Part shown: piece after piece, positions 22,842-45,505 of the stretch | Layout of the letters: each line of letters begins with the position of its first letter | How positions within the stretch are numbered: position 1 is the first letter of the stretch | Assembly (NCBI GenBank): GCA_963827655.1 | Contig: CAWHCF010000010.1 | Span: 1-64,000 of the forward strand | Length of the DNA stretch: 64,000 bases | Direction of reading: 5' to 3' | Source of the DNA: an uncultured Acidobacteriota bacterium | GTDB taxonomy: Bacteria; Acidobacteriota; UBA6911 | Made by a program: the position numbers and the translations under genes | Notes under the pieces: generated by a model | The model's input: only the letters and a program-made list of their open reading frames with translations | What the model was told of the DNA's origin: nothing | The model's database searches: none

Positions 22842-22928
22842 CTCGGCGTTTCTTTCGAGTCTTTGCGTCTTTGTGGTTGGTTTGGTTCCAATACCGCGAT
22901 GACGCGAAGACTCCAAGAAACGCGACGA
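22842..22928. repeat. Inverted pair of degenerate ACACGAAG-family repeats
   Basis: GGCGTTTCTTTCGAGTCTTTGCGTCTTTGTGGT ... ACCGCGATGACGCGAAGACTCCAAGAAACGCG. Confidence 0.7.
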
Positions 22929-22972
22929 ATTCTCCGCTAGACTTTTGCTGCGCCGCGGGCCAGATTAGGACC

Positions 22973-24124
22973 GTGAGAAACTCCACCTTGGTCCGAATCT
23001 GGCGCGCGCTGGTCGTCTTACTCATTCTCCCTGAGATCGCGCTCCTTCAGACCAAGCCGCGAGCGCGAGACTTGGGAATCCCGCTTGAAGGCACACCCGG
23101 ACCGCTCAACGCCATCACTGACGTCAAGGGAGTCGAAGTAGGCCACAGCACAATAATCTCAGGAGAGGGAACCCTGAAGACCGGCGCGGGGCCGGTGAGA
23201 ACCGGAGTCACGGCTGTCGTGCCACGCGGCCGGAGCTCTTCCGATCTGGTCTTCGCGGGATGGTTTTCACAGAACGGGAACGGCGAGATGACCGGAACCA
23301 CGTGGATCGAAGAATCCGGTTTTCTCGAAGGTCCCGTGATGATAACCAACACCCACAGTGTCGGGATCGTTCGCGACGCCGTGATCGCCTGGCGAGTGCG
23401 AAACAAGCAGATGGCTCAGGCGTTTTCCTTGCCGGTGGTCGCGGAAACTTATGACGGCTATTTGAACGACGTCAACGGCTTTCACGTGAAGGAAAAGCAT
23501 GTCTTCGAGGCGCTCGATAACGCCCGCCCGGGCCCGGTCGCTGAAGGCAACGTCGGCGGCGGAACCGGAATGATCTGCCACGAGTTCAAGGGGGGTATTG
23601 GGACCTCATCTCGGCGGCTCAATGAAAGTTCGGGAGGTTACACCGTTGGAGTCCTGGTGCAGGCTAACTACGGTCTGCGCAGGCAACTGCGCATCGCGGG
23701 AGTTCCGGTCGGGGTCGAGATTACGGATGGCACGCTGCGGTCTCAAGAAGAGGGTTCGATCATCATCGTAGTCGCGACCGATGCCCCGCTGCTGGCGCAC
23801 CAACTCAAACGATTGGCGCGAAGAGCGACGATGGGGCTGGCGCGCATGGGAAGCACGGCGGGCAACGGCTCGGGAGATATTTTCATTGCGTTTTCGACTG
23901 CGAATCCCGAGGCCGCCAAACCTTCAGGGATCGCTAGTCTGACCATGCTGCCCAATGAACGGATGAATCCGATCTTTGAAGCCACCGTCCAGGCGACGGA
24001 AGAAGCCATCACCAACGCTCTCGTCGCTGCCGAGACGATGACGGGCGTCGATAATCACAGGGTGATTGCTCTGCCGCACGACCGGCTGCGGCAGGTTTTG
24101 AAAAAATACAACCGGCTTAAATGA
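22973..24124 (+). CDS. dmpA: DmpA / P1 (S58) family aminopeptidase
   Basis: NAITDVKGVEVGH, GNVGGGTGM, KGGIGTSSR, GSIIIVVATDAP, GSGDIFIAFST. Confidence 0.9.
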   Translation: MRNSTLVRIWRALVVLLILPEIALLQTKPRARDLGIPLEGTPGPLNAITDVKGVEVGHSTIISGEGTLKTGAGPVRTGVTAVVPRGRSSSDLVFAGWFSQNGNGEMTGTTWIEESGFLEGPVMITNTHSVGIVRDAVIAWRVRNKQMAQAFSLPVVAETYDGYLNDVNGFHVKEKHVFEALDNARPGPVAEGNVGGGTGMICHEFKGGIGTSSRRLNESSGGYTVGVLVQANYGLRRQLRIAGVPVGVEITDGTLRSQEEGSIIIVVATDAPLLAHQLKRLARRATMGLARMGSTAGNGSGDIFIAFSTANPEAAKPSGIASLTMLPNERMNPIFEATVQATEEAITNALVAAETMTGVDNHRVIALPHDRLRQVLKKYNRLK

Positions 24125-24240
24125 TGCGCGTGTCTTAGATCCTATGTAGGGCGCCAGCTCGCAGGGTCGAAAGCGCGGGCCGTTCTTGGTAAGCTCCTTT
24201 TGGGTTTAGTTGTTTAATCCAAAAACAAAAAGGAGAAACT

Positions 24241-25398
24241 ATGACCAAGAAGACGACCCGCAACCAACAGTATAGCGATATTCGACCGACATTGTTTATG
24301 GCATTTGAACTGGGGATGTCGGAATGGAAACTGGGATTCACGATTGGGCTGGGGCAGAAGGCGCGAAGGCGCACGGTCACAGCCGGCAACCTTGAAAAAG
24401 TACAGAGGGAGATCGTGGCAGCCAAGAAACGATTCGAACTTCCGGAGACGGCCGAGGTGGTGAGCTGCTACGAAGCAGGGCGTGATGGGTTTTGGCTGCA
24501 TCGATACTTGACGCAGTCTGGGATCGGGAACCTGGTGTTGGACTCAGCGAGCATTGAAGTGAACCGGAGAAAGCGGCGAGCTAAGACGGATCGCCTGGAC
24601 GTGGAGAAGTTGCTGACCATGCTGATTCGGTATCAGTATGGAGAGCACAGGGTCTGGAGCGTGGTGCGAGTACCTTCGCCCGAAGAGGAAGATAACCGGC
24701 AGTTGAATCGAGAGCTGCGCAGCCTGAAGAAGGAGAAGACGCGGACCACCAATCGCATCAAGGGACTACTGGCGAGCCAGGGGGTCAGGCTTGAGCCTGG
24801 GAAGGAGCTGTCGGACAAGAAACTGGACTCGATCAGGTTATGGGATGGCTCGCCTTTGCTGCCGGGGTTGAAAGGCCGCCTGCAGCGCGAGCGGGCGCAT
24901 GTGGTGTTTTTGAAGCGACAGATCCTGTCGCTGGAGGGGGACCGCAGGCGCGAACTCAGAGAGGGAGAGAACCCGGACCTGGACCAGGTACGCCAGCTTG
25001 CGTCTTTGCGCGGCGTTGGTGTCAACGGCGGTTGGGTGCTGGTGCGAGAGTTCTTCGCCTGGAGGGAATTTAACAACCGGCGCGAAGTCGGGTCGCTCGC
25101 GGGCCTGACGCCGACCCCATATCAGAGCGGGGAATCGAGGCGTGAGCAAGGGATTAGCAAAGCCGGCAACCGTCACGTCCGGGGGGTAATGATTGAGCTG
25201 GCCTGGTCTTGGGTGCGCTTCCAGCCCGAGAGCAAGCTCACTCGGTGGTTCGAGGAGCGTTTCGGCGGTGCGGGCAAGCGCGTCCGTAGGGTCGGAATCG
25301 TAGCGCTGGCACGACGCCTGCTGATCGATATGTGGAAATTCCTCGAGACCGGAGCTCTGCCCGAGGGCGCGCAACTGAAAAAAGTAGTTGTCGCTTAG
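24241..25398 (+). CDS. IS110 transposase/recombinase
   Basis: RuvC-like AFELG...CYEAG...KTDRLD; C-terminal GLTPTPYQSG, ISKAGN, VALARRL; SD AAGGAG. Confidence 0.95.
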   Translation: MTKKTTRNQQYSDIRPTLFMAFELGMSEWKLGFTIGLGQKARRRTVTAGNLEKVQREIVAAKKRFELPETAEVVSCYEAGRDGFWLHRYLTQSGIGNLVLDSASIEVNRRKRRAKTDRLDVEKLLTMLIRYQYGEHRVWSVVRVPSPEEEDNRQLNRELRSLKKEKTRTTNRIKGLLASQGVRLEPGKELSDKKLDSIRLWDGSPLLPGLKGRLQRERAHVVFLKRQILSLEGDRRRELREGENPDLDQVRQLASLRGVGVNGGWVLVREFFAWREFNNRREVGSLAGLTPTPYQSGESRREQGISKAGNRHVRGVMIELAWSWVRFQPESKLTRWFEERFGGAGKRVRRVGIVALARRLLIDMWKFLETGALPEGAQLKKVVVA

Positions 25399-25614
25399 AC
25401 GGAGAGAAACCAGAACGTGAGAACGTTCGAGACCTAAACAGCTTATGAAACCTCAGGTGTTGTTTTCCTCTTGCGGCCATTGTGCTCCGGCCGGCCCCAG
25501 CGGCGTCAAGGCTAAACCCTTTGGGCGCGCTGTGCGCGGCCTTGACCCCGCGGGCCGACCGGAATACTTGGCCGCTAAGAGGAAAACAACGGAGAGTAAA
25601 CCAACTTCTCGGCA

Positions 25615-25790
25615 TGGTGGGACTGCCCGAAAGAAACACTGGTATCCGCTTTGGAACCGGTTCTTAGATGGGGCGTCCCGAAAGCGCTCGCACATTTTTC
25701 GCCACCGCGCGAATACAGGATTGGGTGTCCGATCACTACACGATCGGCACGGATAGAAGTTTCATTCGGGGTCTATCCCCGAATCAGACA
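25615..25790 (+). ncRNA. Predicted bridge/seek RNA (target- and donor-binding loops), copy 1; ends approximate
   Basis: Stem GGGACTGCCC/GGGCGTCCC encloses loop strands AAGAAACACT and TTCTTAG, matching the insertion site; stem CGAAT/ATTCG encloses ACAGGATT and ATAGAAG, matching the joined element ends. Confidence 0.8.
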
Positions 25791-25928
25791 CCGAGCCACC
25801 AGCTGCAGACGTAACCAAGGAGGTCAACCGAAAAGGAGCTTGACACCCAAGACTACATAGAAGTGTTTCTTCGTGTCTTCGTGTCCTAGTGGTATTGTTG
25901 TGTTTGCGCACTCCAGAAGTGCCCTTCA

Positions 25929-26945
25929 CTAGAGATGCCGATCCTCCAGCGGAAGATACTTCGCGACCCCCGCCATCAAATTTTTGAATTCAGCAAAGGT
26001 TAACGACTGGGCGCCGTCAGACCAGGCCTCTTCCGGATTCGGATGAACCTCCACGATAATGCCGTCCGCGCCGGCCGCCACGGCTGATTTCGCCATAGGC
26101 CCTACCAGCGAGCGCTTCCCGGTGGCATGGCTCGGATCGACAACGACCGGCAGATGGCTGAGTTCGTTGAGCAGGGGAACTGCCGAAATATCCAGCGTGT
26201 TGCGGGTCATCGTTTCAAAGGTACGGATGCCGCGCTCACACAGAATCACGTTCGGGTTTCCCTGAGAGAGGATGTACTCCGCCGACATCAGGAATTCCTT
26301 GATCGTAGCCGAAAGCCCGCGTTTCAACAGAACGGGTTTGGTTGACTTGCCCACGCGCTTCAAGAGCGCAAAATTCTGCATATTGCGCGCGCCGATCTGC
26401 AGAATATCGGCATACCGGGCCACCAGGTCGACTTGTTCTGGGGTCATGACCTCGGTGCAGACCTGGAGTCCGGTGGCCTCTCGAGCTTCCGACAAAAGCT
26501 CCAACCCCTCTTCCTCAAGACCCTGGAAGTCATAGGGCGAGGTTCGAGGTTTGTAAGCTCCTCCTCGAAGGACGGTCGCGCCGGCGGCGCGGACGGCCTT
26601 CGCCGTTTCCAGAAGTTGCGGCCTGCTCTCGACCGAACAGGGGCCCGCAATCACCACGAACTGGTCAGCGCCAAAAGTTACGTCTCCAACGTGGATCTCG
26701 GTTTTGTCCGGCTTGAGCTCGCGGCCGACAAGCTTGAACGGCTGGCGAATGGCCACGACACTCTCCACCCCGGGCGCTCCCTCGAGAGCTTGAAGAGCGG
26801 CCCGGTTGTTGCCGGTCCCCACAGCTCCTATTACGGTACGGGTTTCTCCGAAGATGGGGTGAGCAACATAGCCATACGATTGGATCTTCTCGCAGACGTG
26901 GTCGATTTGTTCCTTGGTAGCGCCGGGCTTCATTGAAATGATCAT
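25929..26945 (-). CDS. aroF: 3-deoxy-7-phosphoheptulonate (DAHP) synthase, type I-beta with N-terminal regulatory domain
   Basis: [41 protein letters not shown]; ATG at 26945 with SD AGGAG. Confidence 0.95.
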
Positions 26946-26976
26946 CGAAGTAGCTCCTGCCCTGAAGCGAGAGGCC

Positions 26977-27016
26977 AAAAACAAAAAAGCCCACAACGGC
27001 TATCACCGAGGTGGGC
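26977..27016 (-). terminator. Attenuator terminator upstream of aroF
   Basis: Minus strand GCCCACCTCGG-TGATAG-CCGTTGTGGGC followed by TTTTTTGTTTTT. Confidence 0.85.
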
Positions 27017-27205: not shown

Positions 27206-27432
27206 GCTCAAACAAGCCTCGGCCAGGTTCCCCTCATCCTCCGCCGAGAACCAATCGCTCGATTCACTCGGCAAACTTCTAGTGACTCGAGGGGCAGAAA
27301 AATATCTTTTCCTTCATTTTCGTGCTTTAGATCCTATGTAGGGCGCCAGCTCGCAGGGTCGAAAGCGCGGGCCGTTCTTGGTAAGCTCCTTTTGGGTTTA
27401 GTTGTTTAATCCAAAAACAAAAAGGAGAAACT

Positions 27433-28590
27433 ATGACCAAGAAGACGACCCGCAACCAACAGTATAGCGATATTCGACCGACATTGTTTATGGCATTTGA
27501 ACTGGGGATGTCGGAATGGAAACTGGGATTCACGATTGGGCTGGGGCAGAAGGCCCGAAGGCGCACGGTCACAGCCGGCAACCTTGAAAAAGTACAGAGG
27601 GAGATCGTGGCAGCCAAGAAACGATTCGAACTTCCGGAGACGGCCGAGGTGGTGAGCTGCTACGAAGCAGGGCGTGATGGGTTTTGGCTGCATCGATACT
27701 TGACACAGTCTGGGATCGGGAACCTGGTGTTGGACTCAGCGAGCATTGAAGTGAACCGGAGAAAGCGGCGAGCTAAGACGGATCGCCTGGACGTGGAGAA
27801 GTTGCTGACCATGCTGATTCGGTATCAGTATGGAGAGCACAGGGTCTGGAGCGTGGTGCGAGTACCTTCGCCCGAAGAGGAAGATAACCGGCAGTTGAAT
27901 CGAGAGCTGCGCAGCCTGAAGAAGGAGAAGACGCGGACCACCAATCGCATCAAGGGACTACTGGCGAGCCAGGGGGTCAGGCTTGAGCCTGGGAAGGAGC
28001 TGTCGGACAAGAAACTGGACTCGATCAGGTTATGGGATGGCTCGCCTTTGCTGCCGGGGTTGAAAGGCCGCCTGCAGCGCGAGCGGGCGCATGTGGTGTT
28101 TTTGAAGCGACAGATCCTGTCGCTGGAGGGGGACCGCAGGCGCGAACTCAGAGAGGGAGAGAACCCGGACCTGGACCAGGTACGCCAGCTTGCGTCTTTG
28201 CGCGGCGTTGGTGTCAACGGCGGTTGGGTGCTGGTGCGAGAGTTCTTCGCCTGGAGGGAATTTAACAACCGGCGCGAAGTCGGGTCGCTCGCGGGCCTGA
28301 CGCCGACCCCATATCAGAGCGGGGAATCGAGGCGTGAGCAAGGGATCAGCAAAGCCGGCAACCGTCACGTCCGGGGGGTAATGATTGAGCTGGCCTGGTC
28401 TTGGGTGCGCTTCCAGCCCGAGAGCAAGCTCACTCGGTGGTTCGAGGAGCGTTTCGGCGGTGCGGGCAAGCGCGTCCGTAGGGTCGGAATCGTAGCGCTG
28501 GCACGACGCCTGCTGATCGATATGTGGAAATTCCTCGAGACCGGAGCTCTGCCCGAGGGCGCGCAACTGAAAAAAGTAGTTGTCGCTTAG
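27433..28590 (+). CDS. IS110 transposase/recombinase (protein identical to copy 1)
   Basis: Same 385-aa translation in the ORF track. Confidence 0.95.
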   Translation: MTKKTTRNQQYSDIRPTLFMAFELGMSEWKLGFTIGLGQKARRRTVTAGNLEKVQREIVAAKKRFELPETAEVVSCYEAGRDGFWLHRYLTQSGIGNLVLDSASIEVNRRKRRAKTDRLDVEKLLTMLIRYQYGEHRVWSVVRVPSPEEEDNRQLNRELRSLKKEKTRTTNRIKGLLASQGVRLEPGKELSDKKLDSIRLWDGSPLLPGLKGRLQRERAHVVFLKRQILSLEGDRRRELREGENPDLDQVRQLASLRGVGVNGGWVLVREFFAWREFNNRREVGSLAGLTPTPYQSGESRREQGISKAGNRHVRGVMIELAWSWVRFQPESKLTRWFEERFGGAGKRVRRVGIVALARRLLIDMWKFLETGALPEGAQLKKVVVA

Positions 28591-28806
28591 ACGGAGAGAA
28601 ACCAGAACGTGAGAACGTTCGAGACCTAAACAGCTTATGAAACCTCAGGTGTTGTTTTCCTCTTGCGGCCATTGTGCTCCGGCCTGCCCCAGCGGCGTCA
28701 AGGCTAAACCCTTTGGGCGCGCTGTGCGCGGCCTTGACCCCGCGGGCCGACCGGAATTCTTGGCCGCTAAGAGGAAAACAACGGAGAGTAAACCAACTTC
28801 TCGGCA

Positions 28807-28982
28807 TGGTGGGACTGCCCGAAAGAAACACTGGTATCCGCTTTGGAACCGGTTCTTAGATGGGGCGTCCCGAAAGCGCTCGCACATTTTTCGCCACCGC
28901 GCGAATACAGGATTGGGTGTCCGATCACTACACGATCGGCACGGATAGAAGTTTCATTCGGGGTCTATCCCCGAATCAGACA
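28807..28982 (+). ncRNA. Predicted bridge/seek RNA, copy 2; ends approximate
   Basis: Same stems and guide segments as copy 1 (AAGAAACACT at 28823-28832). Confidence 0.8.
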
Positions 28983-29109
28983 CCGAGCCACCAGCTGCAG
29001 ACGTAACCAAGGAGGTCAACCGAAAAGGAGCTTGACACCCAAGACTACATGAAGTGTTTCTTGGTGTCTTCGTGTCTTTGTGGTTAGGATGTCTAACAAC
29101 TACCTCTAA

Positions 29110-40189: not shown

Positions 40190-40224
40190 CTTAGTGTTTC
40201 TTCGTGTCTTCGTGTCTTAGAGGT
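40190..40224 (-). repeat. ACACGAAG-family repeat (best empty IS110 target)
   Basis: CTTAGTGTTTCTTCGTGTCTTCGTGTCTTAGAGGT. Confidence 0.85.
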
Positions 40225-40423
40225 ATTTGTTCCATAAGGAAAACGAGGACCGATTCTCCTACTTTCAACCTTCACAATCATCAAGAAAACTTCCGGCTCC
40301 CGAAGGCATCGAACCGGCAGTGGCTCAACCGGGCAGGAAGCGGGATTGTGGTTCGGATCGTGCCAGTGCTATTCTGTCTGCGAATCGACCAGCATCGGAC
40401 GCCACCTGAGGCTAACTATCAGA

Positions 40424-45416: not shown

Positions 45417-45470
45417 CTTATCGTCTGCCCCGTTGGAATTTCACGCGTTCACCACAAGACGAAAACAAAT

Positions 45471-45505
45471 ACCACTTGGACACGAAGACACGAAGAAACA
45501 CCAAG
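45471..45505 (+). repeat. ACACGAAG-family repeat
   Basis: ACCACTTGGACACGAAGACACGAAGAAACACCAAG. Confidence 0.82.

What the first reader, a model, noticed from the sequence alone, without database searches (positions are those of the whole stretch)
25615..25790. RNA-guided IS110 recombinase whose guide can be read off the sequence and points at a host repeat family
Seen: removing either IS copy restores (c)TT-AG-TGTTTCTT, which reads AAGAAACA-CT-AA(GA) on the other strand. In the 3' non-coding end, a stem (GGGACTGCCC 25619 / GGGCGTCCC 25671) and an inner hairpin (GGTATCC..GGAACC) enclose an internal loop. Its 5' strand AAGAAACACT (25631-40) is identical to left target plus CT core at 10/10 positions, and its 3' strand TCTTAG (25662-67) is the reverse complement of CT-AAGA. 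A second stem-loop (CGAAT/ATTCG, inner GTGTCCGATC/GATCGGCAC) carries ATAGAAG (25753-59, a 7/7 match to the right end plus core) and ACAGGATT (a partial match to ATAGGATC of the left end). Established: IS110/IS1111 elements use bridge/seek RNAs with such two-loop guides, IS621 uses a CT core, and IS1111-type elements encode the RNA downstream of the transposase. Inference: this is a natural, probably uncharacterised bridge system programmed against the ACACGAAG repeat, and a candidate reprogrammable recombinase.
Basis: partly seen in the sequence, partly recalled or inferred. Interest (0 to 1): 0.9.

Follow-up and report, generated by a model that had tools for sequence, protein, structure and literature searches.

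The report
RNA-guided insertion sequence aimed at host repeat
This is a mobile element of the IS110 family that carries, behind its recombinase gene, a guide RNA whose loops spell out both the element's own ends and a very abundant host repeat; the guide can be read from the sequence, but it is a new member of a mechanism described in 2024.

Summary
The element (window 24139-25863; second copy 27331-29054) is an IS110-family insertion sequence with an IS1111-like layout: short left end, 385-aa recombinase, then a structured RNA of about 180 nt (25619-25796).

- **Within this lineage:** sublineages 97-98% alike differ in the RNA almost only at guide letters, and their insertion sites differ to match.
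- **In a same-family genome:** all 8 copies of a 60%-identical relative sit at the site spelled by its own loop.
- **Across distant relatives:** over 41-47 non-redundant relatives from many phyla, both target guides and the left donor guide match their own flanks or ends far better than shuffled ones (0 of 10,000 permutations); the right donor guide tracks the right end in 37 of 39.

One correction: the proposed CGAAT/ATTCG stem under the donor loop is not conserved. Three hairpins and a probable long-range helix frame the donor guides instead.

The target is a REP-like palindromic repeat with 57 free perfect sites in this assembly. RNA synthesis, protein binding and present-day activity are not shown. 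This is a new member of a known kind, of moderate interest.

The parts
24139..25863 (+). IS copy A: 1723 nt of element plus one AG core, 25862-63. The other core copy lies at 24137-38.
   Evidence: Boundaries come from the two-copy alignment and from unoccupied repeats that start at 25862/63.
27331..29054 (+). IS copy B, 99.4% identical to A. Its right end lacks one base (CTACAT-GAAG), so it no longer matches the right donor guide.
24142..24149 (+). Left sub-terminal inverted repeat CTATGTAG, 3 nt inside the left end. The left end ATCCTATG belongs to the family pattern AT..TATG.
24241..25398 (+). Recombinase gene, 385 aa. Conserved acidic residues E23, E78, D117, D120 and Ser296-Gly297.
25451..25585 (+). 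135-nt perfect-looking long hairpin between the gene and the RNA. Found only in this IS lineage; function unknown.
   Evidence: A contig in run X16 joins 25450 directly to 25586 (table 7).
25619..25679 (+). Target-binding stem-loop: outer stem 25619-28 with 25671-79, and inner hairpin 25641-58.
25630..25640 (+). 5' target guide AAAGAAACACT. It is the reverse complement of the core plus right flank, AG-TGTTTCTT.
25660..25667 (+). 3' target guide GTTCTTAG. It is identical to the left flank plus core, TCTT-AG.
25686..25690 (+). 5' half (GCTCG) of a probable long-range helix that pairs with 25792-25796 and closes the donor domain.
   Evidence: Support is moderate: 57% of cells pair, with compensatory changes in all 5 pairs.
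25698..25713 (+). Small hairpin TTCGC/GCGAA directly before the left donor guide.
   Evidence: 75-81% of cells pair
25715..25722 (+). 5' donor guide ACAGGATT. Its middle AGGAT (25717-21) is the reverse complement of the left end ATCCT.
25725..25750 (+). Donor-domain hairpin GTGTCCGATC/GATCGGCAC.
   Evidence: 94% of cells pair, many compensatory changes
25753..25759 (+). 3' donor guide ATAGAAG, identical to the right end plus core (ATAGA-AG).
25764..25784 (+). 3' hairpin ATTCGGGG/CCCCGAAT. A hairpin stands at this place in nearly all relatives.
25792..25796 (+). 3' half (CGAGC) of the probable long-range helix.
25840..25845 (+). TTGACA, 10 nt before CATAGAAG at the right end. It keeps this place in the right ends of the relatives. 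Possibly the -35 box of a promoter completed in a circular form; this is inference.
25853..25860 (+). Right sub-terminal inverted repeat CTACATAG, 1 nt inside the right end.
25864..25899 (+). Half-site of the host palindromic repeat interrupted by copy A (TGTTTCTTCGTGTCTTCGTGTCCTAGTGGTATTGTT).

Best explanation
The element is an insertion sequence of the IS110 family with the IS1111-like layout. It has a short left end, a 385-aa RuvC-like/Tnp recombinase, and a structured RNA of about 180 nt encoded downstream on the same strand.

The RNA's first stem-loop displays two short guide strands.
- The 5' strand (AAGAAACA-CT) has the sequence of one half of the target plus the core.
- The 3' strand (TCTT-AG) is complementary to the core plus the other half.
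- Together they pair with opposite strands of TCTT-AG-TGTTTCTT, the edge of a REP-like palindromic host repeat.

The second domain displays two more strands in the same geometry. AGGAT matches the left end and ATAGA-AG matches the right end plus core. Both would pair with the junction CTACATAGA-AG-ATCCTATGTAG of a circularised element.

The recombinase-RNA complex would bring junction and target together and exchange strands at the shared AG (CT on the other strand). That inserts the element without a target duplication.

Shown here: the anatomy, the conserved RNA structure, covariation of all four guide strands with flanks or ends, and the protein family and fold.

Inferred from IS621 and ISEc11 work: RNA synthesis and binding, the circular intermediate, strand exchange at the core, and present-day activity.
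For: 1. **Anatomy.** All strings are at the stated coordinates. AG flanks both ends of the four full-length copies.

2. **Natural retargeting within one lineage.**
- Copies A, B and C20 carry AAAGAAACACT/TTCTTAG. A and B sit at TT-AG|TGTTTCTT; the 5'-truncated C20 keeps only its right flank, also TGTTTCTT.
- Copies C44 and C37 carry AAAATACCACT/TTCCTAG. C44 sits at TCTT-AG|TGGTATTTG, 10/10 to its own 5' guide.
- Of the 5 differences between A and C37 inside the 183-nt RNA, 4 fall in the 19 guide letters (hypergeometric p = 4e-4).
- Three metagenome contigs (L129, L141, L191; 97.7-97.8% identical) carry a third combination, AAAATACCACT with TTCTTAG. All three sit at CTT-AG|TGGTATTTGTT.

3. **A relative in a same-family genome.** G005 holds 8 copies of a 60%-identical element. 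All have CGATCAGC on the right, and the guide reads GCTGATCG-C. Five of the 8 have CTTTC-AG on the left; the others have CTGTC-AG or CCTTC-AG.

4. **Distant relatives (49-62% protein identity, many phyla).**
- 5' target guide against its own right flank: summed contiguous matches 129, against 29.9 +/- 6.4 permuted (maximum 59; 0 of 10,000; n = 41).
- 3' target guide against its own left flank: 180 against 36.8 +/- 6.6 (0 of 10,000; n = 47).
- 5' donor guide against the left end: 21 of 37 match 5/5; sum 163 against 128.7 +/- 3.8 (0 of 10,000).
- 3' donor guide against the right end: 37 of 39 match 7/7, including 6 where A>G changed on both.

5. **RNA structure.**
- A covariance model finds the RNA downstream of the gene in 78 of 79 sources.
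- On 78 distinct sequences, 78.4% of cells pair, against 34-48% when partners are slid.
- 411 cells have changes on both sides, against 202 or fewer in the slid controls.

6. **Protein.**
- NCBIfam NF033542 'IS110 family RNA-guided transposase': 173.1 bits, cut-off 140.
- PF02371: 65.6 bits.
- AlphaFold model pLDDT 81.9. Best fold matches are IS621 and ISCro4 synaptic-complex chains: E about 1e-13, 363-369 aligned columns.

7. **Target supply.** 57 free perfect 14-nt sites, against 0.016 expected.

8. **RNA libraries.** Contigs from three metatranscriptome studies cover 25346-25876.
Against: - No direct evidence of a transcript with defined ends or strand. The RNA-library data are assembled contigs of 90-97% relatives, and DNA carry-over cannot be excluded.
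- No sigma-70-like promoter was found ahead of the RNA.
- No circle-junction joint was seen (table 5).
- Three of the five copies in the genome are damaged: C44 has a frameshift with 1 stop, C20 is 5'-truncated, and B lacks a base at its right end. Current activity is therefore open.
- Some insertions match their guides only partly. C37 matches 4 of 8 on one side. 10 of 41 relatives show 0 contiguous matches for the 5' guide in my fixed register; some of these are register errors of my parser.
- The 5' donor guide matches only 5 contiguous letters of the left end and is flanked by mismatches.
- The Pfam DEDD-domain hit is below its cut-off (26.7 against 29).
- In ISPpu9, a REP-targeting IS110-family element, a downstream small RNA was reported not to be needed for transposition (abstract, PMC12288879). 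Position alone therefore proves nothing.
- Relatives are not independent, so the permutation figures overstate significance.
Confidence: 0.9

Rival explanations
1. The short identities arise because the non-coding end once captured a piece of the host repeat, through an old insertion or recombination. On this view they are shared ancestry, not a guide.
For: The repeat is extremely abundant: 804 matches at up to 4 mismatches. The element lives inside it, so repeat fragments could easily be picked up.
Against: - The two matching segments are 6-10 nt long, split and in opposite senses. They sit exactly on the two strands of the internal loop of a conserved stem-loop.
- Relatives with unrelated targets show the same arrangement at the same RNA positions.
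- BLAST of the element against the genome finds repeat matches only from 25862 onward, outside the element.
Confidence: 0.02
2. The conserved region acts as DNA, for example as recombinase-binding sites or a folded single strand at the element end, and not as a transcribed RNA.
For: - No transcript ends or strand are shown.
- No promoter-like site was found before the region.
- Compensatory changes would also preserve a single-stranded DNA fold.
Against: - The region lies 65-245 nt inside the right end, not at it.
- The protein's nearest solved relatives are bridge-RNA recombinases.
- For IS1111-family elements the downstream region was shown to give RNAs that co-purify with the transposase (PMC11187229, section read).
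- RNA-library contigs from three studies cover the region.
Confidence: 0.04
3. The RNA system is genuine, but this lineage is a fossil. The copies are decaying remnants that no longer move, so the element would not work as a recombinase without repair.
For: Three of five copies in the genome are damaged. No circle junction was seen.
Against: - Copies A and C37 have intact reading frames, ends and guides.
- A and B differ at 6 positions in about 1720, which points to recent copying.
- Three further full-length copies, 97.7-97.8% identical, sit at new sites in metagenome contigs.
- Guide letters changed and the sites followed, which needs movement after the change.
Confidence: 0.2

Closest known systems
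IS1111-family elements with seekRNA: ISEc11, ISPa11, ISKpn4 (Siddiquee et al. 2024, PMC11187229; abstract and sections 6, 8, 9, 13 read, plus passages)
   Same: - RNA encoded downstream of the transposase gene.
- Sub-terminal inverted repeats.
- The guide that pairs with the top strand lies 5' of the one that pairs with the bottom strand.
- GL-P----SG motif (AGLTPTPYQSG).
- REP targeting, as for ISPa11.
- Natural retargeting between close relatives, as for ISEc11 and ISXne4.
   Different: - The transposase is 385 aa, against 330-350 aa.
- The inverted repeat is 8 bp, against the usual 11-13.
- Terminal extensions are 3 and 1 nt outside the core, against 7 (or 6) and 3.
- At E <= 1e-10 the tblastn tally by organism for plasmids lists no enterobacterial genus among its top ten; whether IS4321/IS5075-type genes match was not tested.
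- No phylogeny was made.
IS621 bridge RNA system (Durrant et al. 2024, PMC11208160, passages read; structures 8wt6-8wt9)
   Same: - Two guide-bearing domains, target first and donor second.
- In each, the 5' strand has the sense of the left half plus core, and the 3' strand is antisense to core plus right half.
- The core dinucleotide reads CT in the guide frame (the CT core of IS621 is recalled, not seen in the passages read).
- The full-length predicted fold matches.
   Different: - The RNA is downstream of the gene, not in the left end. In the frame where the core reads CT, gene and RNA lie on the bottom strand.
- Protein identity is about 20%, and only the C-terminal domain aligns by sequence.
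- The donor guides sit between three hairpins closed by a probable long-range helix, not in a simple internal loop.
- The first acidic residue is Glu in most of the clade.
- No Rfam family matches.
ISPpu9 and ISPpu10 of Pseudomonas putida (PMC12288879 and bioRxiv 10.64898/2026.03.19.712850; abstracts only)
   Same: IS110-family elements that insert into repeated palindromic intergenic sequences. For ISPpu10, a target-encoded stem-loop adds specificity. The targets here also lie in a hairpin-forming repeat.
   Different: - Different proteins and RNAs.
- In ISPpu9 the downstream small RNA was reported as dispensable and separately mobile. Here no orphan RNA copies exist: the only 5 RNA matches in the genome are inside IS copies.

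Membership tests
IS110 family RNA-guided (bridge/seek RNA) recombinase elements | Recombinase with an N-terminal RuvC-like DEDD domain and a C-terminal Tnp domain carrying a conserved Ser | tested here: met
   - NF033542: 173.1 bits, cut-off 140.
- PF02371: 65.6 bits. PF01548: 26.7 bits, below its cut-off of 29.
- The fold matches IS621/ISCro4 over 363-369 columns.
- S296-G297, E78, D117 and D120 are invariant and E23 is at least 90% conserved among 30 relatives.
- That E23 stands for the first Asp is inferred from its place at the end of strand 1; it was not mapped residue by residue.
IS110 family RNA-guided (bridge/seek RNA) recombinase elements | The same core dinucleotide at both junctions, with no longer target duplication | tested here: met
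   AG stands on both sides of copies A, B, C44 and C37 and of L129, L141 and L191.
IS110 family RNA-guided (bridge/seek RNA) recombinase elements | Non-coding RNA with guide strands that covary with target flanks and with element ends | tested here: met
IS110 family RNA-guided (bridge/seek RNA) recombinase elements | The RNA is made and binds the recombinase; a circular intermediate forms | not testable with these tools
   The only data are RNA-library contigs over the region from 3 studies, which show neither strand nor ends. No junction joint was seen.
IS1111 group (Partridge & Hall; Siddiquee 2024; Durrant 2024) | Long non-coding end and RNA downstream of the transposase gene | tested here: met
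   The left non-coding end is 102 nt and the right one 463 nt. The RNA model matches downstream of the gene in 78 of 79 sources.
IS1111 group (Partridge & Hall; Siddiquee 2024; Durrant 2024) | Sub-terminal inverted repeats: 7-17 bp per Durrant, usually 11-13 bp per Siddiquee | tested here: met
   CTATGTAG 24142-49 and CTACATAG 25853-60, 8 bp. This lies inside Durrant's range and is shorter than Siddiquee's usual length.
IS1111 group (Partridge & Hall; Siddiquee 2024; Durrant 2024) | The guide complementary to the top strand precedes the one complementary to the bottom strand | tested here: met
   Relative to the gene's strand, the 5' guide is the reverse complement of AG-TGTTTCTT and the 3' guide equals TCTT-AG.
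IS1111 group (Partridge & Hall; Siddiquee 2024; Durrant 2024) | Terminal extensions of 7 (or 6) bp on the left and 3 bp on the right | tested here: not met
   The extensions are 3 nt (ATC) and 1 nt (A) outside the core, or 5 and 3 if a core is counted on each side.
IS1111 group (Partridge & Hall; Siddiquee 2024; Durrant 2024) | Transposase of 330-350 aa that clusters with IS1111 in a tree | tested here: inconclusive
   The length is 385 aa, outside the range. No tree with named IS1111 and IS110 members was made, because no such reference sequences were available from a tool.
IS621-like (IS110 group) bridge RNA | Bridge RNA encoded in the long left end, upstream of the recombinase gene | tested here: not met
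   The left end holds only 102 nt before the ATG, and the RNA lies downstream.

The most novel reading that the evidence does not exclude
The element represents a large clade that may not have been characterised. Its features are a recombinase of about 380 aa, mostly Glu at the first catalytic position, and near-invariant ends CATAGA-AG-AT..TATG. It occurs in Chloroflexota, Rokubacteriota, Armatimonadota, Gemmatimonadota, Planctomycetota, Acidobacteriota and others.

Its guide RNA may be a distinct structural subtype. The donor guides are presented between three hairpins closed by a long-range helix, not in an internal loop. In most members the 5' target guide covers only the first core base.

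If so, the clade offers about 80 natural guide/target pairs on one scaffold, and a second architecture to compare with IS621.
Probability: 0.3. Interest if true: 0.55.

Novelty: new member of a known kind. Interest (0 to 1): 0.4.

Why it matters
- It is a clean natural example in which the target of a mobile element can be read from its own RNA.
- Three near-identical variants were retargeted by one to four letters to two places in one host repeat.
- The element comes with a ready comparative set: 78 distinct RNAs on one scaffold, each with its own flanks. This set could inform rules for guide length and mismatch tolerance in IS1111-like systems, which are less studied than IS621.
- For genome annotation, it explains why this repeat family is interrupted. 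It also gives a covariance model that finds the RNA in many uncultured soil phyla.
- It does not open a new mechanism.

Tried and rejected
- **Rfam** (E up to 10): only five weak chance-level matches (E 0.35 to 9.6, all far below gathering scores). No known RNA family.
- **Single-sequence folding**: I did not rely on it.
rejected on comparative grounds. 34.5% of cells pair, against 75-81% for the small hairpin that uses the same CGAA.
- **Long-range helix:**
  - The MAFFT alignment of the 3' tail is poor (48.5% paired).
  - The duplex-energy permutation is positive (own sum -1092.9, permuted -979 +/- 22, 0 of 5000) but noisy. Only 5 of 65 sequences rank their own partner in the top 3.
  - The model-fitted alignment gives 57% paired and leans towards the structure it was built on.
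  - I report this helix as probable only.
- **Promoter and terminator scan**:
  - There is one promoter-like site, on the minus strand inside the gene.
  - There are two terminator-like sites, no more than in shuffles. One is on the plus strand at 25671-25689 plus a T run, and the T run is not conserved in relatives.
  - I draw no conclusion.
- **Junction promoter:** TTGACA is conserved near the right end. The best -10-like hexamer in the left end would lie 19-20 nt away, so this stays an inference.
- **Profile comparison with another IS110-type protein of this genome**: probability 7%, uninformative for mapping the first catalytic residue.
- **PDB sequence searches**: only the C-terminal domain aligns.
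- **Circle junction:** no joint in the four RNA runs laid (table 5). These are contigs, so this says nothing about absence.
- **Parts of the element without cover in those runs:** not interpreted.
- **Metagenome scan with a 17-mer**: 93 stretches were fetched and all 93 were screened with the RNA profile. Only 3 hold the RNA; I take the other 90 for chance matches of a short word.
- **Plasmid tblastn**: only generic 'IS110 family transposase' names. The best hits are 52% identical (Paraburkholderia, Cupriavidus). No named IS was obtained, and ISfinder is not available here.
- **Host taxon:** not determined, and no sample was traced.
- **Not in print?** I make no claim that the clade is absent from print. 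My only literature searches were made, and supplementary tables of the 2024 papers, which list predicted bridge RNAs per ISfinder element, could not be seen.
Full report
**1. What is there**

The window holds two direct copies of a 1.72-kb element: A at 24139-25863 and B at 27331-29054. They are 99.4% identical. The genome, 53 contigs and 8.18 Mb, holds three more:
- one in contig C37;
- one in C44, whose gene carries a frameshift;
- one in C20, which is 5'-truncated.

Each full copy is bounded by AG on both sides...TT-AG|ATCCTATGTAG ... CTACATAGA-AG|TGTTTCTT.... An 8-bp inverted repeat, CTATGTAG/CTACATAG, lies 3 and 1 nt inside the ends.

The single gene (24241-25398, 385 aa) scores as follows:
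- PF02371 at 65.6 bits, and PF01548 at 26.7 bits, just under its cut-off of 29.
- The NCBIfam model 'IS110 family RNA-guided transposase' at 173.1 bits, cut-off 140.

An AlphaFold model built on 30 relatives has mean pLDDT 81.9. Its best fold matches are chains of the IS621 and ISCro4 bridge-recombinase complexes: E about 1e-13, 363-369 aligned columns, about 20% identity. By sequence only the C-terminal domain aligns to them, including the Ser-Gly of AGLTPTPYQSG.

Among the relatives E78, D117, D120 and S296-G297 are invariant. E23 is at least 90% conserved, and a few members have Asp there. That E23 takes the place of the first Asp of the DEDD set is my inference from its position at the end of the first strand.

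**2. The observation**

The right flank belongs to a host repeat. A 22-nt core has 804 matches at up to 4 mismatches and 363 at up to 2. Of those 363, 117 have an inverted partner within 120 nt and fold into hairpins of about 90 nt. This is a REP- or MITE-like palindromic family.

The restored site TCTTAGTGTTTCTT occurs 57 times unoccupied, against 0.016 expected. The variant with GG in place of the AG core is commoner: CTTGG+TGTTTCTT occurs 166 times and CTTAG+TGTTTCTT 85 times. No copy sits at the GG variant.

**3. Test of the guide reading inside one lineage**

The C44 and C37 copies are 96.5-97% identical to A. Within the 183-nt RNA they differ from A at 5 positions.
- Three are in the 5' target strand: AAAGAAACACT becomes AAAATACCACT.
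- One is in the 3' target strand: TTCTTAG becomes TTCCTAG.
- One is in the apical loop.
- The chance that 4 of 5 fall in the 19 guide letters is p = 4e-4.

C44 sits not at the edge of the repeat but further in, at TCTT-AG|TGGTATTTG. On the other strand that reads CAAATACCA-CT, 10/10 to its own guide. C37 sits at GCCT-AG|TGTTTGAT. It matches its own 3' strand (CCTAG) and only 4 of 8 letters on the other side.

A scan of metagenome contigs with a 17-mer from the right end gave 93 stretches, of which 3 hold the RNA. These three (L129, L141, L191) are full-length copies, 97.7-97.8% identical. They carry a third combination, AAAATACCACT with TTCTTAG, and all three sit at CTT-AG|TGGTATTTGTT. So the guide letters changed and the sites followed.

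**4. Test in relatives**

A protein-pattern scan of species genomes gave 80 loci at 49-62% identity. They come from Chloroflexota, Rokubacteriota, Armatimonadota, Gemmatimonadota, Planctomycetota, Acidobacteriota, delta-proteobacteria and others.

The RNA region is recognisable by sequence just downstream of the gene in 64 of them. A covariance model finds it in 78 of 79 sources given.

The element ends are conserved: TTGACA, then 10-12 nt, then CATAGAAG| on the right, and AG|AT..TATG on the left. I located these ends by those motifs alone, then compared the variable loop strands with the flanks.

| Comparison | Observed | Permuted | n |
|---|---|---|---|
| 5' target strand with own right flank (summed contiguous matches) | 129 | 29.9 +/- 6.4, maximum 59, 0 of 10,000 | 41 non-redundant |
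| 3' target strand with own left flank (summed contiguous matches) | 180 | 36.8 +/- 6.6, 0 of 10,000 | 47 |
| 5' donor strand with left end (summed matches over 5 positions) | 163 | 128.7 +/- 3.8, 0 of 10,000 | 37, of which 21 match 5/5 |

The first two rows are and the third. The 3' donor strand equals the right end plus core in 37 of 39, including all 6 in which A>G changed in both.

In a genome of the same bacterial family (G005), 8 copies of a 60%-identical element all have CGATCAGC on the right, and the guide reads GCTGATCG-C. Five of the 8 have CTTTC-AG on the left; the other three have CTGTC-AG or CCTTC-AG. That target lies in a different host repeat.

Two cautions apply. Relatives are not independent, and my fixed-register parser misplaces some guides: 10 of 41 show 0 contiguous matches. 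The figures are therefore rough, but the direction is unambiguous.

**5. RNA anatomy**

RNAalifold on 40 sequences supports three helices with compensatory changes:
- the outer stem of the target stem-loop;
- the inner hairpin of the target stem-loop;
- the donor hairpin.

On the model-fitted alignment of 78 distinct sequences, 78.4% of cells pair, against 34-48% for slid partners. There are 411 double-change cells, against 202 or fewer in the slid controls. That alignment leans towards the structure it was built on.

- CGAA pairs with an upstream TTCG in a small hairpin at 25698-25713 (75-81% paired).
- ATTCG is part of a 3' hairpin at 25764-25784, which is present in nearly all relatives.

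A helix between 25686-90 and 25792-96 probably closes the whole donor domain. Its support is compensatory changes in all 5 pairs, 57% of cells paired, and a positive but noisy duplex-energy permutation.

In most distant relatives the 5' target strand matches only the first core base. In this element, and in two of the three same-family relatives with a readable RNA (G019, G033), it ends in CT and matches both; the G007 guide ends in GT.

**6. Expression**

Only assembled contigs were available. Contigs from three metatranscriptome studies cover the region:
- X15, 25346-25870;
- X16, 25559-25863;
- X18, 25626-25876.

They are 90-97% like the window, and several of their differing letters fall at 25631-25636, the guide. 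They cannot show strand, ends or level, and DNA carry-over is possible. No promoter-like site precedes the RNA. [quoted passage not shown]

**7. How it most likely works**

By analogy with IS621 (PMC11208160, passages) and ISEc11 (PMC11187229), the recombinase binds the RNA. The donor strands pair with the two strands of the circle junction CTACATAGA-AG-ATCCTATGTAG. The target strands pair with TCTT-AG-TGTTTCTT. Strands are then exchanged at the shared core.

The geometry of each guide pair is that of IS621. The 5' strand has the sense of the left half plus core, and the 3' strand is antisense to core plus right half. Relative to the gene, however, the order is 'top-strand complement first', the IS1111 order described by Siddiquee et al.

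**8. Comparison and novelty**

The element meets the tested features of the IS110 family of RNA-guided elements. Against the features of the IS1111 group in the strict sense:
- **Met:** RNA position, guide order, the GL-P----SG motif, and an inverted repeat within Durrant's 7-17 bp range.
- **Not met, or outside the range:** terminal extension lengths and transposase length.
- **Not tested:** placement in a tree.

REP targeting and natural retargeting are both already in print for this family, for ISPa11 and for ISEc11/ISXne4. I therefore file this as a new member of a known kind.

The clade-level features may or may not have been described: the donor-domain architecture, Glu at the first acidic position, and the wide spread in uncultured soil phyla. 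The supplementary tables that could settle this were closed.

**9. Verdict**

I put 0.9 on a genuine RNA-guided IS whose guide points at the host repeat. Activity of the present copies is open. Interest is moderate, 0.4.

Noticed in passing
window 25451-25585: A 135-nt near-perfect long hairpin (-83 kcal/mol) lies between the recombinase stop codon and the RNA. It is present in all 5 copies in the genome and nowhere else in the genome or in the relatives, where the RNA starts about 50 nt after the stop. One RNA-library contig (X16) joins 25450 directly to 25586, so a variant without the hairpin exists. Function unknown.
   Followed up: partly
window 25929-26996 (minus strand), between IS copies A and B: A DAHP synthase gene (PF00793 and PF18152) is bracketed by two direct copies of the IS, like a composite unit. 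Recombination between the copies could delete or mobilise it. Not examined further.
   Followed up: no
whole genome; in the window e.g. 40193-40231 and 45464-45501: A very abundant host repeat: 363 copies within 2 mismatches of a 22-nt core and 804 within 4. About a third are paired as imperfect palindromes that fold into hairpins of about 90 nt. It holds two related sub-sites, TTAG|TGTTTCTT at the edge and CTTAG|TGGTATTT near the tip. Both are used by variants of this IS.
   Followed up: partly
G000 contigs C49:476705-476956, C50:128497-128742, C53:86850-87095 (L001, L007, L008): Three further IS110-family transposase matches (PF02371), unrelated to this element. The C50 locus (L007) has a 458-aa protein with a canonical GIDPGK start; the C53 match scores the same but its ORF was not read. 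The RNA profile of this element does not match near them. Their own guide RNAs were not sought.
   Followed up: no
L092, L096, L099, L101, L103, L104, L106, L107 (genome G005): Eight copies of a 60%-identical relative have CGATCAGC on the right and mostly CTTTC-AG on the left. The site lies inside runs of a heptamer-like host repeat (AGCTTTC/AGCTGTC). This is a second case of a repeat family serving as landing pad.
   Followed up: partly
protein of 24241-25398, residue 23: The position expected for the first catalytic Asp is Glu (FELG) in most of the clade and Asp (FDLG) in a few members (L048, L051, L053). This is an E/D alternation at a catalytic site. The mapping is inferred, not shown.
   Followed up: partly
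window 22871-24124: A peptidase family S58 gene (PF03576, E 1e-121) ends 13 nt before the left core of IS copy A. The insertion is intergenic, in a repeat just after the stop codon.
   Followed up: no
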